A stretch of DNA of 64,000 nucleotides, taken from assembly GCA_040220235.1 (NCBI GenBank), contig JAVJTO010000070.1. The stretch is one strand, 5' to 3'. The notes below the pieces were generated by a model, which was not told where the DNA came from, did not search any database, and was given only the letters and a program-made list of their open reading frames with translations. The position numbers and the translations under genes were made by a program. The DNA comes from Coleofasciculus sp. B1-GNL1-01 (GTDB taxonomy: Bacteria; Cyanobacteriota; Cyanobacteriia; Cyanobacteriales; Coleofasciculaceae). Below, piece after piece: positions 483 through 6,754 of this stretch. Every line of letters starts with the position of its first letter. The stretch's first letter is position 1.

Positions 483-2981
483 ATGGCTAACTTTACACTC
501 CAGTTACTACATGCGGCTGACCAAGAAGGGGGAATCCCAGCGATAGACGACGCGCCCCGCTTTTCGGCTGTTCTCAACGCCCTGAAAACGCAAGATATTG
601 ATGGTATTCCTGGGGTTGACTTTCCCAATACCCTGGTTTTATCGTCCGGAGATGCCTATATTCCGGGTCCCTTTTTCTCCGCCAGTAGAACCGCGTTTGG
701 TGGTGCTGGACGAGGCGATATCTTAATCCAAAATGAGTTAGGCTTTCAAGCGATCGCCTTTGGTAACCACGAATTTGACCTGGGTACGGGTGCGATCGCG
801 GATGTGATTGCGGCGGATGGTGATTATCCGGGAACTCAGTTTCCCTATCTCAGCGCCAACCTGGATTTTAGCCGTGATGAAAATTTAGCACCCCTTGTGG
901 TTGAGGATGGACAAGAAGCCGATACCATTCCGAACAGTATTGCTGGCAATACCATTATTACCGTTAATGGGGAACGCATTGGTGTTGTTGGTGCGACGAC
1001 GCCAACCTTACCTCAGATTTCCTCTCCCGATGATGTCGGCGTTGCGCCGATTGAATTTGATTCGGCTAATCCCGCCGATATTCAGGCGTTAGCCACAGAA
1101 ATTCAAGACTCGGTCGATACCCTGCTGACCAATAACTCGGATATTAACAAAGTTATCCTGCTGGCGCACATGCAGCAGATTGGGATTGAAGCACAACTGG
1201 CTACCGCTTTGGCAGATGTAGACATTATTGTCGCTGGCGGTTCCAATACGCTGCTAGCTGATGAAACGGATCGCCTTCGCGCTGGCGATGAAGTGGAAGG
1301 TGCTTATCCGATTCTCAAGACAGCAGCTGATGGGAATCCCGTTGCTGTAGTTAACACCGATGGGAACTATAAATACGTGGGTCGCTTGGTGGTTGACTTT
1401 GACGAGAACGGTGTAATTATTCCGGATAGCATCGACCCTACGATTAGTGGTGCTTACGCCACCGATGAGGAAGGCGTCGCCGCTGTGGGTGGGACTCCTG
1501 ACCCCGATATTGTGGACATTACCCAGACGTTGCGGGATGTCATCGCCAGCCAAGAGGGTAACATTTTTGGCAATACCGAAGTCTTTCTTAATGGAACACG
1601 CAGCGATGTCCGCACCCAAGAAACTAATTTGGGAAATCTTACCGCCGATGCGAACCTGGCGATCGCGCAGGAGTCTGACCCCAGTGTGGTGATTTCCCTG
1701 AAAAATGGGGGTGGGATTCGGGATAACATTGGTGTCGTCACCTATCCTCCTGGTTCAACAGATCCCGAAGATATACTCAAACTCCCGCCCCAACCCAATC
1801 CCCTCGCTGGTAAGGAAGAAGGAGATATTTCTCAACTGGATATTTCCAACTCCCTCCGCTTCAACAACGGGTTAACCTTAGTCACTGTCACCGCCCAAGA
1901 ACTCCTAGATATTATTGAACATGGCGTTTCCCAGACAGAACCCGGTGCAACACCGGGACGGTTTCCCCAAGTTGGGGGGATGGCGTTCAGTTTTGATGCC
2001 GATTTGCCAGCGGGCGATCGGGTTCAATCCTTAGCGATTCAAGATGGTGATGGGAATGTCACCGATGTGGTTGTTGCCAATGGTGAACTAATTGGCAATC
2101 CCGATCGCAGCTTCCGTATGGTCACATTAGCCTTTCTCGCGGGTGGTGGTGATGGCTATCCTTTCCCCATGGGAGACTCTGCCAATCAAGTCAACTTGGC
2201 ACAAGCCGACGATGCACCTCGCACAGGGGTAGCCACGTTTGTGCCGGATGGTTCTGAACAAGATGCGTTAGCGGAGTATTTGGCAGACAATTATAGCCAA
2301 ACGCCCTTTGATAATAAAGATGTACCTCCTGCACTCGACACTCGCATTCAAAACCTAGACGTTCGTAGCGATACCGTCCTCGGTGAAGGCGCGATCGCGG
2401 GAACGGATGGGGCAAATACCCTCGTCGGTACCCCAAATCAGGATTTAATTCTCGCCTTTGCTGGGAATGACCTTGCTGCTGGTGAACTCGGTGATGATCT
2501 GATCCGAGGTGGCGATGGTGATGATGTACTGCGGGGAGACCGGAATAGCCGCAGCGCCCAAGTGGGTGAAGCTGGGGGTGATGATATCATCTACGGCGGT
2601 GCAGGGAGCGATCGCATCGGGGGTAAGAGTGGTAATGATACTCTATTTGGTGAAGCTGGTGATGATCAAATCTGGGGCGATGATGGCGATGATATTATTT
2701 ATGGCGGTCTGGGTAATGACACCTTAACCGGTGATGACTTCTCTGGTGGTCAAGGGAGTGATACCTTTGTGTTGGCTGTGGGAGAAGGAACGGACACCAT
2801 TGTTGATTTTGAAGTGGGAACTGACGCGATCGGTTTGGCGAATGGTCTCACCTTCGGTCAGTTGTCCTTTAGTGAACAAGATGGGAATACCTTAATTAAA
2901 TCCGCAGATGATACGGTGTTGGCTATTCTCAATCAGGTAAATGCTGATAGTTTAACTGAGACTTCTTTTCTGGTGATTTAA
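483..2981 (+). CDS. Bifunctional metallophosphatase/5'-nucleotidase with C-terminal RTX (hemolysin-type Ca-binding) repeats
   Basis: LLHAADQE, SGD, GNHEFD and LAH metallophosphoesterase motifs; R-x-x-ETNLGNL and NGGGIR 5'-nucleotidase C-domain; GGxGxD repeats. Confidence 0.9.
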   Translation: MANFTLQLLHAADQEGGIPAIDDAPRFSAVLNALKTQDIDGIPGVDFPNTLVLSSGDAYIPGPFFSASRTAFGGAGRGDILIQNELGFQAIAFGNHEFDLGTGAIADVIAADGDYPGTQFPYLSANLDFSRDENLAPLVVEDGQEADTIPNSIAGNTIITVNGERIGVVGATTPTLPQISSPDDVGVAPIEFDSANPADIQALATEIQDSVDTLLTNNSDINKVILLAHMQQIGIEAQLATALADVDIIVAGGSNTLLADETDRLRAGDEVEGAYPILKTAADGNPVAVVNTDGNYKYVGRLVVDFDENGVIIPDSIDPTISGAYATDEEGVAAVGGTPDPDIVDITQTLRDVIASQEGNIFGNTEVFLNGTRSDVRTQETNLGNLTADANLAIAQESDPSVVISLKNGGGIRDNIGVVTYPPGSTDPEDILKLPPQPNPLAGKEEGDISQLDISNSLRFNNGLTLVTVTAQELLDIIEHGVSQTEPGATPGRFPQVGGMAFSFDADLPAGDRVQSLAIQDGDGNVTDVVVANGELIGNPDRSFRMVTLAFLAGGGDGYPFPMGDSANQVNLAQADDAPRTGVATFVPDGSEQDALAEYLADNYSQTPFDNKDVPPALDTRIQNLDVRSDTVLGEGAIAGTDGANTLVGTPNQDLILAFAGNDLAAGELGDDLIRGGDGDDVLRGDRNSRSAQVGEAGGDDIIYGGAGSDRIGGKSGNDTLFGEAGDDQIWGDDGDDIIYGGLGNDTLTGDDFSGGQGSDTFVLAVGEGTDTIVDFEVGTDAIGLANGLTFGQLSFSEQDGNTLIKSADDTVLAILNQVNADSLTETSFLVI

Positions 2982-3007: not shown

Positions 3008-4294
3008 TCAGCGTGGGGTACTGATCGCCGGATCAGCTAATGTGCCTTCATCCAAAGATACGAAAAACTCTCTGATCTTTTCGTCTCGTAAGTTCAACCA
3101 TTTCTCTAAATGTCTGCTGTAGGCTTTCGCCTTGTCTTTCGCATCCGGGTTATTCAATAGCACCGTTATTGCCTGGTTAATCTTATCTGGATTAATAGTC
3201 GTTCGACGGATTCTCTTGGCAAACCCTTTTCGCACCAGACAGTCGAGATTGTATTCTTGTTCGTACATCATTCCCACCCCGACAACGGGTTTACCCGCCA
3301 ACGCCGCAGTCATGACGGTGCCAATACCACCATGAATCACGGCGATGTCAGCCAGCCGATTCACCTGCAAAGCAGGTAACCAATCGGTCAGAAGCACACC
3401 AACCGGAACGTTTATATTTAAACCTTCTGTTTTTCGCTGCATCGGGGAAATCACATTAAAGGGTTGATCCTTAAACCCTTCCACTATGGCTTTAATTACA
3501 GAAGGTCGTCCCGAACTACCCATGGAAAAATAGACCAGAGGTTTATCTTGATTCACCCATTCAAGTACCGCTTGGGGGATTTCTTTATCCAAGTTGGCAA
3601 TTAATGGACCAATATAATAGTCGGATTGGCGTTGTTTTTCTAATCCGGAAAAGTCCTCGGGTTCAGCCAATAAATTGTAATCGCCTTGCCAAAGTTCGTA
3701 GATGTCTTTGAGGGGCTGAACTTGATACTCCTGTGCTACTGTATTCAACGGTTTGAGAATCGCCTTGCTGAAATAAGCAACAGCCCGCTTGGTTAACCAT
3801 TGCAACATAGTGTCTGGTAGGTGTCTGATCAGGGGACGCTCAAGATCATCCATATAGGAACCCAATCCCTGATCAATCATCGCTTCAATATCCCAGGTGG
3901 ATTGTGTCAGCCACACCAAGGGTATCTTTGCCACACGACAGGATAGGGTTACCGTGGTATTGAAGCCTGTAATCGCGGCGAGAGGACGCAGGTTTTGCAG
4001 GAATGCTACTTCATTTTTTACGCGATCGCGGGTTTCTGCTAACGAAAAAAATGATCCCAGTTTTTCTCCTTGATCAATCTGATAGAGATGCTCGATTTTC
4101 GTGGGGGTCAGGCGAGGCGATAACTTCGTCAGCGCAAATCCTGCATCTTCAATGAGTGGTTCAAACTGTCCTCCGTAGCTAGCAAAGTGTAGATCAAACC
4201 TGGGACGACATGCTTTTGCCACTTCCAGTGTTCGCGTGGTTTCCGCTAAATTCCATGTGGCTGGGAAAAAGACTAAACGACTTCGTTGCATCAT
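3008..4294 (-). CDS. GT-B glycosyltransferase (MGT/GT1/GT28-like)
   Basis: VYFSMGSSG, WLP, HGGIGT and YEQ nucleotide-sugar-binding motifs. Confidence 0.85.
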   Translation of the reverse strand: MMQRSRLVFFPATWNLAETTRTLEVAKACRPRFDLHFASYGGQFEPLIEDAGFALTKLSPRLTPTKIEHLYQIDQGEKLGSFFSLAETRDRVKNEVAFLQNLRPLAAITGFNTTVTLSCRVAKIPLVWLTQSTWDIEAMIDQGLGSYMDDLERPLIRHLPDTMLQWLTKRAVAYFSKAILKPLNTVAQEYQVQPLKDIYELWQGDYNLLAEPEDFSGLEKQRQSDYYIGPLIANLDKEIPQAVLEWVNQDKPLVYFSMGSSGRPSVIKAIVEGFKDQPFNVISPMQRKTEGLNINVPVGVLLTDWLPALQVNRLADIAVIHGGIGTVMTAALAGKPVVGVGMMYEQEYNLDCLVRKGFAKRIRRTTINPDKINQAITVLLNNPDAKDKAKAYSRHLEKWLNLRDEKIREFFVSLDEGTLADPAISTPR

Positions 4295-4469
4295 CTATTA
4301 CCCATTGTTTCATTTAGTTGATTAAAAAAATTGTATATTCATTTAAAACTATTACAAACAAACCCTTTTTAACCGAATAATAATAACGAGTTAAACTTGC
4401 ACTAGGAGTATTTACTTAGAGAGGTCGATCTTTCCAGACACGTTCAATAAGCATTCTAGGAGTAGCTTT

Positions 4470-6488
4470 ATGGTAGGTTACTTTACCTTACCCATGTCAG
4501 AAACTCTAATTCGTGACGCTTATTTCCTGAAACAGATCGACGGCAAAGAACCAGCAACCGATTCAGCATCCGCCGCCACCGCGATCGCCACAGGGCAGAA
4601 AACCGATGCTGGTAACATTGCTTGGTTAACGGGTGATCCAGCCGATGGTGCATTAACGACAATTGCGGAAACATTACGCCGTGACCAAGGCTTCTCAATC
4701 GGTGTCGTTAGCACCGTACCCTTCAGCCACGCCACACCTGCGGCGTTTGTCAGCCATAACGTTAATCGTAACAACTACTTGGACATCGCCAATGAAATCA
4801 TCAACACCACTCAGCCTGATCTGGTGATTGGTGGGGGTCATCCCAATACCTATGGTCGTTTTCGCTATCTCTCAGAGTCGGATTACAATGCGCTGAACTC
4901 CGGTGACGCTGGCTATACCTTTGTGGAATGGACAGCCGGTGTTGATGGCGGCGATGCTTTACTGACAGCCGCCGAGACTATTGATGTTAATGCTGGGGAG
5001 AAACTCTTCGGCTTGTTTGGTGGTGAGGGTGGCAATTTCGATTTCCATCAGGTGTCTGATACCCCAGGGAATCCATCCGTCACTCCCGGTAGTGTGGAGA
5101 ATCCCACGTTGACGGAAGCAACGAATGCGACGTTATCGGTACTCAATCAAGATCCCGATGGTTTCTTCGTCATGTTCGAGCAGGGGGATATCGACTGGTC
5201 AAACCACGGTAATAACTTTGAAACGATGATCGGCGGGGTTTGGGATTTAGACCAAGCCGTGCAAGCCGCAGAAGCGTTTATCGCTCAACCGGGCGATGAT
5301 TTGGACTGGTCTAATACGTTAATGATCGTCACCTCTGACCATTCCAACAGCTATCTCCGCAACAAAGAGGTACTAGGTAAAGGTGACTTACCGCAGCAGG
5401 TGGAAGCCAGTGGGGAGGGTAGTTATGGCAGTCCCTGGCTGTATCCGAATGGGGAAGTCTCCTACCACACCACGAATCATACCAATGAACTGGTAACTTT
5501 GTCCGCTCGTGGTGCAGGTGCGGCGTCGTTCTCGGAGTATGCGGGTTCCTGGTATCCGGGGACAGATATCGTGGATAATACCCAGATCTATCAGGTGATG
5601 GATCAAGCCACTCAAGACGGGGTGGAACATCTGATCCTGTTCATCGGTGACGGGATGAACATTGAGCATGAAATCGCCAGTAGCCGTTATTTGTATGGAG
5701 AAGATAATGGACTTGCTTGGCATGACTGGGGTGAACTGAGTGATGGCTGGACGGGCTTCTCGTCTACCTGGGATGTGACGACCTATAACAAGTATGCCTC
5801 GGTGCATGACTTACCGGCGTATGACGCCACTAACTTTGACCCGACACTGGGTTACGATCCAGACATCGGCGGGGTTGAACCCGGTTATCCCGAAGGTAGT
5901 ATTATCCAAGCCAGTTCTGATGGTGACACGCTGGTTGGTGAGGTTGACCTGGATGACTTGATCGTGGCGAGTGACGGTGATGATACCGTTGCTGGCGAGA
6001 TGGGTCATGACATCATTGTCGGTAAAGACGGTGACGATGTACTGCGGGGCGATCGCAACAGTCGTTCTTCTGGCGGTCAAGTCGGCGGGGATGACGTGAT
6101 TTACGGTGGTAACGGGAATGACCGGATTGGCGGTAAAGGGGGTGATGATATCCTCTTGGGTGAAGACGGCGACGACCAAATCTGGGGTGATGATGGGGAT
6201 GATATCCTGCGCGGCGGTTTGGGTCATGATACCTTGACTGGTGATGACTTCTCTGGGGGTCAGGGGCGTGATACCTTTGTCCTGGCTGCGGGCGAAGGAA
6301 CCGACACGATTGTTGATTTCAATGTTGGTGAAGATTTCATCGGTTTGGTCGGAGACCTGACATTTGGACAATTAACTATCGCTCAGGATGGCGAAAATAC
6401 GCTGATTGGGTTAGACAACGAAACGTTGGCAATTCTGAATCAGGTGGATGCGAGTAATCTGACTCAGGATTATTTCGTAGCGGTCTAA
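4470..6488 (+). CDS. PhoA-family alkaline phosphatase (circularly permuted) with RTX tail
   Basis: TDSASAATA (catalytic Ser32), HATPAA, EQGDIDWSNH, TSDH and HTN, with ILFIGDGM placed after all of them; AGGAG RBS upstream. Confidence 0.9.
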   Translation: MVGYFTLPMSETLIRDAYFLKQIDGKEPATDSASAATAIATGQKTDAGNIAWLTGDPADGALTTIAETLRRDQGFSIGVVSTVPFSHATPAAFVSHNVNRNNYLDIANEIINTTQPDLVIGGGHPNTYGRFRYLSESDYNALNSGDAGYTFVEWTAGVDGGDALLTAAETIDVNAGEKLFGLFGGEGGNFDFHQVSDTPGNPSVTPGSVENPTLTEATNATLSVLNQDPDGFFVMFEQGDIDWSNHGNNFETMIGGVWDLDQAVQAAEAFIAQPGDDLDWSNTLMIVTSDHSNSYLRNKEVLGKGDLPQQVEASGEGSYGSPWLYPNGEVSYHTTNHTNELVTLSARGAGAASFSEYAGSWYPGTDIVDNTQIYQVMDQATQDGVEHLILFIGDGMNIEHEIASSRYLYGEDNGLAWHDWGELSDGWTGFSSTWDVTTYNKYASVHDLPAYDATNFDPTLGYDPDIGGVEPGYPEGSIIQASSDGDTLVGEVDLDDLIVASDGDDTVAGEMGHDIIVGKDGDDVLRGDRNSRSSGGQVGGDDVIYGGNGNDRIGGKGGDDILLGEDGDDQIWGDDGDDILRGGLGHDTLTGDDFSGGQGRDTFVLAAGEGTDTIVDFNVGEDFIGLVGDLTFGQLTIAQDGENTLIGLDNETLAILNQVDASNLTQDYFVAV

Positions 6489-6509
6489 TACTACTACCAA
6501 GTCCAAGCA

Positions 6510-6542
6510 AGATCCCCGACTTCTCCAAGAAGTCGGGGATCT
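6510..6542. terminator. Strong hairpin after the phosphatase (terminator or dispersed palindrome)
   Basis: AGATCCCCGACTTCT-cca-AGAAGTCGGGGATCT perfect inverted repeat. Confidence 0.6.
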
Positions 6543-6754
6543 GGGATAAATAGATAGTTCCCTGTTCCCTACTCTCAACCGTTAACTTTAAATGAAAGTC
6601 CGACTACTTACTCATTAGGATTAGGTAATTTATAACTTCTTTACTTTTTCAGAAAAAATAATTGAGTTATTTTTTTAAAAAACTGTAACAAAAAATACAT
6701 TTTAAAAAAGAAAAAATACAATAGAAATTGCCTGGATTATTATGGAGTAAATTG

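What the first reader, a model, noticed from the sequence alone, without database searches (positions are those of the whole stretch)
4470..5900. Circularly permuted alkaline phosphatase
Seen: the catalytic TDSASA motif is at residues ~30-35, followed by HATPAA, EQGDIDWSNH, TSDH and HTN. The ILFIGDGM strand (Asp at residue 394, nt 5649) comes after all of them. Established: in PhoA-family enzymes IGDGM (E. coli Asp51) is the first motif and precedes the Ser nucleophile. The upstream DNA is AT-rich intergenic sequence with an RBS, so no N-terminal part appears to be missing. Inference: this is a natural circular permutant in which the normally N-terminal ~90 aa sit at the end of the domain, just before an RTX tail, with no Sec signal peptide (possible type I secretion).
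Basis: partly seen in the sequence, partly recalled or inferred. Interest (0 to 1): 0.8.

Follow-up and report, generated by a model that had tools for sequence, protein, structure and literature searches.

The report
Naturally circularly permuted PhoA alkaline phosphatase
This gene encodes a PhoA-type alkaline phosphatase whose normally first ~88 residues, including a metal-binding aspartate, sit at the end of the enzyme domain; it is predicted to fold and work normally, and relatives preserve what are likely the steps of its origin: doubled genes, half-decayed doubles and the trimmed rearranged form.

Summary
ORF 4470-6488 (672 aa) has Ser32 ... His337, then the IGDGM strand (Asp394, nt 5649), then an RTX tail. 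It is the only PhoA-family gene and only such strand in the genome. It is a true circular permutation: of 370 proteins retrieved, 74 are permuted, 212 are in normal order and 11 are full normal-order tandems. All 51 permuted domains tested keep every catalytic residue, the moved segment is under purifying selection, and AlphaFold2 folds the domain as one unit (pTM 0.92) that matches PhoA (Z 31). Tandems share the same tight junction. One tandem has lost its inner pair of segments, one its outer repeat, and one permutant keeps a relic of that repeat, which points to duplication then deletion, possibly more than once. The permutation is not tied to the RTX tail: 23 of 57 permutants have a signal-like N-terminus instead. 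Not shown: activity, secretion, dimer state, Asp394 coordinates. Some near relatives carry deleted copies. An engineered permutant of E. coli AP is in print (title seen only); my searches found no natural one. The scan had noted permutations in other branches (PafA/NPP), none in PhoA.

The parts
4458..4462 (+). Ribosome-binding site AGGAG, 7 nt before the ATG
   Evidence: sequence; same N-terminus in 7 of 7 other full-length cluster members
4470..6488 (+). ORF, 672 aa: permuted PhoA-family domain (aa 1-472) plus RTX tail
4470..5621 (+). Segment A (aa 1-384): normally the C-terminal four-fifths of PhoA. Carries D31, S32 (nucleophile), H87, T89, R100, E237, D242, W243, H246, D290, H291, H337. 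Model 25-384 aligns to E. coli AP 95-449, the natural C-terminus
4563..4565 (+). Ser32, aligned to Vibrio AP Ser65 (E. coli Ser102)
5616..5627 (+). Four-residue joint (aa 383-386) between the ancestral last helix (370-382) and the ancestral first strand (387-393)
   Evidence: model secondary structure; length fixed within 5-9 anchor-to-anchor in 109 of 110 such junctions
5622..5885 (+). Segment B (aa 385-472): the moved ancestral N-terminus, first strand plus the subfamily's long insert
5649..5651 (+). Asp394, aligned to Vibrio AP Asp12 (E. coli Asp51), the metal-bridging aspartate
   Evidence: invariant in 51 of 51 permuted domains
5910..6485 (+). RTX tail (aa 481-672) with 7 nonapeptide-like repeats (aa 509-590) and a C-terminal segment; likely type I secretion signal
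   Evidence: PF00353; repeats; 59-66% identical to tails of five other ORFs in the genome

Best explanation
The gene encodes a circularly permuted PhoA-family alkaline phosphatase that is predicted to fold as one normal domain, likely hydrolyses phosphate monoesters outside the cell, and is likely exported by a type I system through its RTX tail. SHOWN: the chain starts just before the catalytic Ser, runs to the ancestral C-terminal helix, and continues through a four-residue joint into the ancestral first strand carrying Asp394; all metal ligands are present. INFERRED from PhoA chemistry (established knowledge, E. coli numbering recalled): Zn1 on D242/H246/H337, Zn2 on D394/D290/H291, Mg on D394/T89/E237, R100 holding phosphate, S32 forming the phosphoseryl intermediate; H87 and W243 give the His/Trp pair of Vibrio and TAB5 enzymes. 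INFERRED origin: in-frame tandem duplication (B1-A1-B2-A2) fused the old termini; the short joint docks B2 into A1, so the inner pair A1+B2 is already a complete permuted domain and B1 pairs with A2; loss of the outer pair released the permutant, with new ends in a subfamily-specific loop before the Ser. The freed unit was then fused to RTX tails, signal peptides and other phosphate-scavenging domains.
For: Both orders plus tandems in one subfamily: 212 normal, 74 permuted, 11 full tandems, 7 doubled permutants among 370 proteins. All 12 key residues in 51 of 51 permuted domains, against 118 of 124 normal ones for the 11 scored. dN/dS of the moved segment 0.00-0.08 in the closest pairs, as low as or lower than the rest. 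AlphaFold2 pLDDT 90.6, pTM 0.92, strand at 387-393; model 27-384 on Shewanella AP Z 31.4, rmsd 2.2 over 281 residues. Joint length fixed in permutants and tandems alike. Paired decay: tandem P0024 has dead A1 and dead B2 with B1 and A2 largely intact; P0170 has dead A2 with B2 and the visible part of A1 intact; permutant P0157 ends in a decayed piece of A2 whose best matches are tandem junctions. HlyB/HlyD genes in the genome. Permuted units sit in proteins with 5'-nucleotidase, phytase-like and choice-of-anchor I domains.
Against: No assay. The structural aligner is sequential and covered only residues 25-384, so the place of Asp394 was not measured. The tandem model could not be run. The paired-decay argument rests on three single database proteins, one N-terminally incomplete. 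The window's own clade has no tandem as its sister in any tree, so its tandem ancestor is not observed. Only 2 of 8 congeneric genomes have the gene and both copies are broken; 3 of 4 runs laid show deletion alleles. No significant Pho box upstream.
Confidence: 0.85

Rival explanations
1. The protein is the stump of a tandem gene: segment B is a leftover start of a second domain, and segment A is inactive without its first strand.
For: Full tandems exist (11 of 370) and P0157 shows that relics of a second repeat can persist. Congeners carry broken copies.
Against: Asp394 and all other ligands are invariant in 51 of 51 permuted domains; B is under purifying selection; B ends at the same place across the main clade; the unit is itself repeated as ABAB and ABABAB; the model packs B with pLDDT 93-98 over residues 381-460.
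Confidence: 0.03
2. The order is real but segment B completes the active site of the other subunit of a homodimer (swap in trans) rather than its own chain.
For: PhoA enzymes are usually dimers (established knowledge; passages on the Vibrio dimer). Not excluded by sequence.
Against: A single chain folds as a closed domain with pTM 0.92; the joint is four residues and length-fixed, which suits docking in cis.
Confidence: 0.07
3. The permutant is active but arose by fragment shuffling (fission and re-fusion, or recombination between two different PhoA genes) rather than by decay of a stable tandem.
For: The main permuted clade (99/97 support) is not sister to any sampled tandem; a few permutants have A and B segments that fall in different places in the two trees (the B tree has only 79 columns).
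Against: Tandems with the same joint, tandems with one dead pair, and a permutant with a relic of the second repeat all exist; P0157 groups with first repeats of tandems (84-92 SH-aLRT).
Confidence: 0.2
4. The family is functional, but in this cyanobacterial lineage the gene is a recent acquisition on its way out, so the window copy may have little role.
For: 2 of 8 congeners have it, both broken; none of the 16 other genomes of the family searched has a close intact match; at least three different deletions seen; three PhoX genes are present; no RTX-independent sign of phosphate regulation.
Against: The window copy and 7 other full-length proteins at 95.5-99.7% identity keep all 12 residues; one independent-looking contig spans the whole gene without gaps.
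Confidence: 0.15
5. Assembly artefact.
For: None found.
Against: Seven other 672-aa proteins from NCBI, ENA, JGI and Logan assemblies have the same order; a 6585-nt contig spans 4301-6523; the same order occurs in Prosthecochloris, Leptolyngbya, Chlorobaculum and Anaerolineae records.
Confidence: 0.005

Closest known systems
PhoA-family Zn/Mg alkaline phosphatases (Pfam PF00245; Vibrio AP 3E2D, Shewanella 3A52, TAB5 2IUC, E. coli 1ALK)
   Same: Fold (Z 25-31), full ligand set, His/Trp pair as in Vibrio AP
   Different: First strand with the bridging Asp comes last; Asp-to-Ser interval of the subfamily is about 98 residues in normal-order members against 53 in Vibrio AP; RTX tail and no signal peptide
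Normal-order members of the same uncharacterised subfamily (e.g. P0041, P0051; ~500-530 aa, signal peptide)
   Same: 53-61% identity over segment A and 43-61% over segment B
   Different: Order B-A instead of A-B; 72 of 74 close ones have a hydrophobic N-terminus and none has a fused domain over 100 aa, against 21 of 35 close permutants with such a fusion (related sequences, not independent)
Engineered circular permutants of E. coli alkaline phosphatase (Kojima, Ayabe, Ueda 2005, PMID 16198264)
   Same: Title reports a circularly permuted E. coli AP with high specific activity, so the fold tolerates joined termini
   Different: Laboratory constructs; I saw only the title in two reference lists, the paper is not held, so cut sites could not be compared
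Permutation by duplication and deletion (general model; Peisajovich, Rockah, Tawfik 2006, PMID 16415885)
   Same: Tandem, partly decayed and trimmed forms
   Different: Model named in passages of PMC2395249 and PMC9763678; the 2006 paper seen as a reference title only, its DNA-methyltransferase subject is recalled. Here the intermediates are natural database proteins of a PhoA subfamily
Permuted PafA/NPP/PhnA-type phosphatases noted earlier in this scan
   Same: Same superfamily fold with old termini joined
   Different: Other families, and the last ~100 residues moved to the front rather than the first ~88 to the end; unchecked AI notes

Membership tests
PhoA-family alkaline phosphatase (PF00245) | Pfam gathering score | tested here: met
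   140.6 bits, cut-off 24.4
PhoA-family alkaline phosphatase (PF00245) | Ser nucleophile, Arg and the nine metal ligands of the three sites | tested here: met
   D31 S32 T89 R100 E237 D242 H246 D290 H291 H337 D394 by alignment
PhoA-family alkaline phosphatase (PF00245) | Alkaline phosphatase fold | tested here: met
   predicted model, residues 27-384: Z 31.4, rmsd 2.2, 281 aligned to 3A52
PhoA-family alkaline phosphatase (PF00245) | Canonical order, GDGM strand before the Ser | tested here: not met
   Asp394 follows His337; this is the finding
PhoA-family alkaline phosphatase (PF00245) | Bridging Asp lies in the metal site | tested here: inconclusive
   strand 387-393 modelled at high confidence, but no coordinates and a sequential aligner
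PhoA-family alkaline phosphatase (PF00245) | Homodimer | not tested
PhoA-family alkaline phosphatase (PF00245) | Phosphomonoesterase activity at alkaline pH | not testable with these tools
   needs an assay
E. coli-type PhoA equivalog (NF007810/PRK10518) | NCBIfam cut-off | tested here: not met
   86 bits, cut-off 540
Circular permutant | Homologues align as two blocks in swapped order covering the whole domain | tested here: met
   74 of 120 first hits in B-A order, 35 in A-B order; cut at canonical profile positions ~84-89
Circular permutant | Old termini joined by a short link | tested here: met
   model 384 = E. coli 449, strand starts at 387
Type I secretion substrate (RTX protein) | C-terminal RTX nonapeptides, no N-terminal signal | tested here: met
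   PF00353 46 bits; 7 repeats, low N-terminal hydrophobicity by a crude window score
Type I secretion substrate (RTX protein) | HlyB and HlyD exporters in the genome | tested here: met
   one HlyB and four HlyD over the cut-off, on other contigs; outer-membrane channel not searched
Type I secretion substrate (RTX protein) | Export depends on the tail | not testable with these tools
   needs secretion assay
RTX pore-forming toxin (NF033943) | NCBIfam cut-off and toxin domain | tested here: not met
   57 bits, cut-off 1000, match confined to the repeats
SphR (Pho) regulon gene | Three tandem CTTAACCT-like boxes upstream | tested here: inconclusive
   best site 4368-4397 scores 18 of 24; 23% of 3000 GC-matched genome windows score as high; the simple score also failed on several pstS genes

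The most novel reading that the evidence does not exclude
This PhoA subfamily is a natural, still-visible assembly line for circular permutation: its tandem genes fold as swapped single-chain dimers in which the inner segments (A1+B2) already form the permuted enzyme, either pair can decay independently, and permutants were released several times with different cut points, after which the permuted unit spread as a module into secreted multi-enzyme phosphate-scavenging proteins of cyanobacteria, green sulfur bacteria and Chloroflexota.
Probability: 0.55. Interest if true: 0.75.

Novelty: new variant of a known kind. Interest (0 to 1): 0.63.

Why it matters
PhoA is a textbook enzyme and a common reporter, and in the papers I could search no natural permutant is described. 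Standard annotation hides the rearrangement, because Pfam matches only the un-moved part. The family supplies natural proteins for each step of the duplication-deletion model, including tandems with one dead pair, so the model and the swapped-fold prediction can be tested directly with wild sequences. It also offers evolved, compact permutants with both ends next to the catalytic loop, of possible use for fusions and sensors.

Tried and rejected
Pho box upstream: not above background. Sigma-70 promoter and terminator scans: at shuffle level. Segment B alone against PDB sequences: 7 hits at E 0.2-1.5, all unrelated chance matches, no AP; the family profile did align the GDGM strand to Vibrio AP 3-14 as a separate weak stretch. 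Single origin of all permutants: rejected under LG+G4 (p-AU 0.021, 21 against 36 rows) but not under LG+C20 (p-AU 0.063, 11 against 19 rows); main clade plus P0157 as one clade rejected (p-AU 0.012; group chosen after seeing trees); the test for main clade plus P0166/P0193 did not finish. So several origins are suggested, not shown. Trees used thinned sets: 171 A segments, 161 B segments, 57 and 30 rows. Search for more tandems added no new full tandem among 89 new proteins. No RNA holder listed: no evidence either way. ESM Atlas: only PF00245 clusters, no model. Complex prediction, Foldseek and the model of a tandem were not available. Literature searches with no natural permuted PhoA; one search found nothing on the His/Trp double change. 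The library lacks most subscription journals. The idea that the permutation serves the RTX tail was rejected: only 10 of 57 permutants have a clear RTX tail by my pattern.

Full report
Observation. The window holds an intact 672-aa ORF at 4470-6488 with a ribosome-binding site 7 nt upstream. Pfam PF00245 matches aa 29-342 from model position 57 onward; aa 385-472 alone match positions 4-60, weakly (E 0.056). A family profile aligns the late GDGM strand to residues 3-14 of Vibrio AP, whose Asp12, Ser65, Thr118 and Trp274 are named in passages of PMC7569297. The genome has one PF00245 gene and one copy of the moved segment, so no other gene can supply the strand. An RTX tail follows.

Not an artefact. 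Seven other 672-aa proteins, 95.5-99.7% identical and from NCBI, ENA, JGI and Logan assemblies, have the same order and all 12 key residues; named members are Coleofasciculus spp.. One of four runs laid has a gap-free contig over 4301-6523 (its length equals that of the contig behind P0269, so these two are probably one record).

The family. I call aa 1-384 segment A and aa 385-472 segment B. Among 260 proteins from two searches HMMs of A and B gave 133 normal-order (BA), 53 permuted (AB, the query included), 10 full tandems (BABA), 4 doubled permutants (ABAB), 17 distant tandems and 43 partial or distant proteins. With cluster mates and a third search the counts are 212 BA, 74 AB, 11 BABA, 7 ABAB of 370 (near-identical mates inflate AB). 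Genome and metagenome loci add ABAB and ABABAB genes. Named permuted records come from Leptolyngbya, Prosthecochloris, Chlorobaculum, Pirellulales, Anaerolineae and Chloroflexota. Normal-order relatives are 53-61% identical over A and 43-61% over B. Their Asp-to-Ser interval is about 98 residues (88-132, n 111), and the main group of permutants is cut at about position 84-89 of that interval, in an insert that solved APs lack.

Function. All 51 permuted domains that passed a coverage filter (of 53) keep all 12 residues including the moved Asp; 118 of 124 normal domains and 17 of 19 tandem domains keep the 11 scored. In the closest pairs of permuted loci dN/dS is 0.07-0.15 for A and 0.00-0.08 for B; across the 45 pairs listed B never exceeds 0.52 (pairs not independent). 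AlphaFold2 on aa 1-477 with 30 permuted sequences gives pLDDT 90.6, pTM 0.92, a helix at 370-382 and a strand at 387-393. Model residues 25-384 superpose on E. coli AP 95-449, its natural end, and on Shewanella AP with Z 31.4, rmsd 2.2. The aligner keeps sequence order and I had no coordinates, so that the late strand fills the slot of the first strand is a strong inference, not a measurement. Permuted units occur in proteins with 5'-nucleotidase, phytase-like, metallophosphoesterase and choice-of-anchor I domains. The metal assignments are transferred from PhoA chemistry (recalled).

Export. The genome has HlyB and HlyD genes. The tail is 59-66% identical to tails of five other ORFs, among them the 5'-nucleotidase at 483-2981, an endonuclease/phosphatase-family protein and a CAP-domain protein. 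Among 57 permutants, 10 have an RTX tail and no hydrophobic N-terminus, 23 the reverse, none both, 24 neither (crude patterns). Type I export is likely, and the permutation does not depend on the tail.

Origin. The A-to-B joint has nearly fixed length in permutants and tandems alike: 5-9 anchor to anchor in 109 of 110 junctions. Three proteins look like intermediates. Tandem P0024 has lost Ser, Arg and five ligands in A1 and the Asp in B2, while B1 and A2 keep theirs (A2 has one Asp-to-Gly beside the Ser): dead and live parts pair as A1+B2 and B1+A2, not as two normal-order domains. P0170, incomplete at its N-terminus, has B2 and the visible ligands of A1 intact and A2 dead. Permutant P0157 ends in a decayed start of A2 whose best matches are the junctions of tandems P0170, P0009, P0276, P0003 and P0006, and its A groups with their first repeats. 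This is the series expected from duplication and deletion, a model named in passages of PMC2395249 and PMC9763678. Against: these are three single records, the tandem could not be modelled, and the window's own clade (99/97) has no tandem sister. Six outlying permutants (P0157, P0166, P0184, P0186, P0193, P0198) are cut 10-15 residues later than the main clade. One clade of all permutants is rejected under LG+G4 (p 0.021) but not under a mixture model (p 0.063), so repeated origin is likely but not shown.

Results against. The gene is patchy and often broken nearby: 7 of 41 genomes searched have any match; 2 of 8 congeners do, one lacking aa ~235-487, the other lacking aa ~199-280 and ending near aa 393. 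Three of four runs show deletion alleles. The genome has three PhoX genes. The best upstream Pho-box-like site is matched by 23% of background windows. No RNA holder was listed.

Known and new. By score, residues and fold it belongs to PF00245; it fails the canonical order and the E. coli equivalog cut-off. An engineered permutant of E. coli AP with high activity is in print (PMID 16198264; title only). Six searches (listings, with passages read for two papers) found no natural permuted PhoA; subscription journals are mostly missing and no supplements were read. Earlier notes of this scan report permutations in PafA/NPP/PhnA-like families with another cut, none in PhoA, and none on similar sequence (unchecked). 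Verdict: real, a new variant of a known enzyme family, with an unusually complete set of natural intermediates. Interest 0.63.

Noticed in passing
window 5058-5314, 5315-6274, 5617-6510; G004 (L003), G007 (L004): Recurrent deletion alleles of this gene in near relatives: 255 nt in frame (3 of 4 runs), 958 nt (2 of 4), 892 nt (1 of 4), and a ~770-nt loss in G004; joints show only 0-4 nt of shared sequence.
   Followed up: partly
window 483-2981: 5'-nucleotidase-family ORF (832 aa) with an RTX tail 66% identical to that of the phosphatase; order nucleotidase, glycosyltransferase, phosphatase is kept in G004 and G007.
   Followed up: partly
window 3008-4294 (-): UDP-glycosyltransferase-like ORF (EryCIII-like C-terminal domain), divergent from the phosphatase across a 175-nt AT-rich gap.
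   Followed up: no
window 6510-6542 and 6557-6591: Perfect 15-bp inverted repeat just after the stop, and a second short repeat; 117 and 49 matches on both strands of the genome at up to 3 mismatches (the palindrome counts twice per site): REP-like elements.
   Followed up: partly
L014, L096 (ABABAB); P0121-P0124, P0282-P0284, L097, L103 (ABAB): The permuted unit is itself repeated two or three times in long secreted proteins; in P0122 the two A segments are identical over the columns used.
   Followed up: partly
P0204, P0208, P0217-P0222, P0230-P0237: A separate, more distant group of ~1000-aa tandem PhoA proteins (17 of 260), one with a Por secretion tail; their repeats pair within each protein in the tree.
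   Followed up: no
   Followed up: no
G000 C11:45139-49353, C131:2872-4557, C109:994-4356, C119:16551-17276: Closely related RTX tails on FG-GAP, CAP-domain and endonuclease/phosphatase proteins: a tail shuffled among passengers; the C119 copy appears interrupted.
   Followed up: partly
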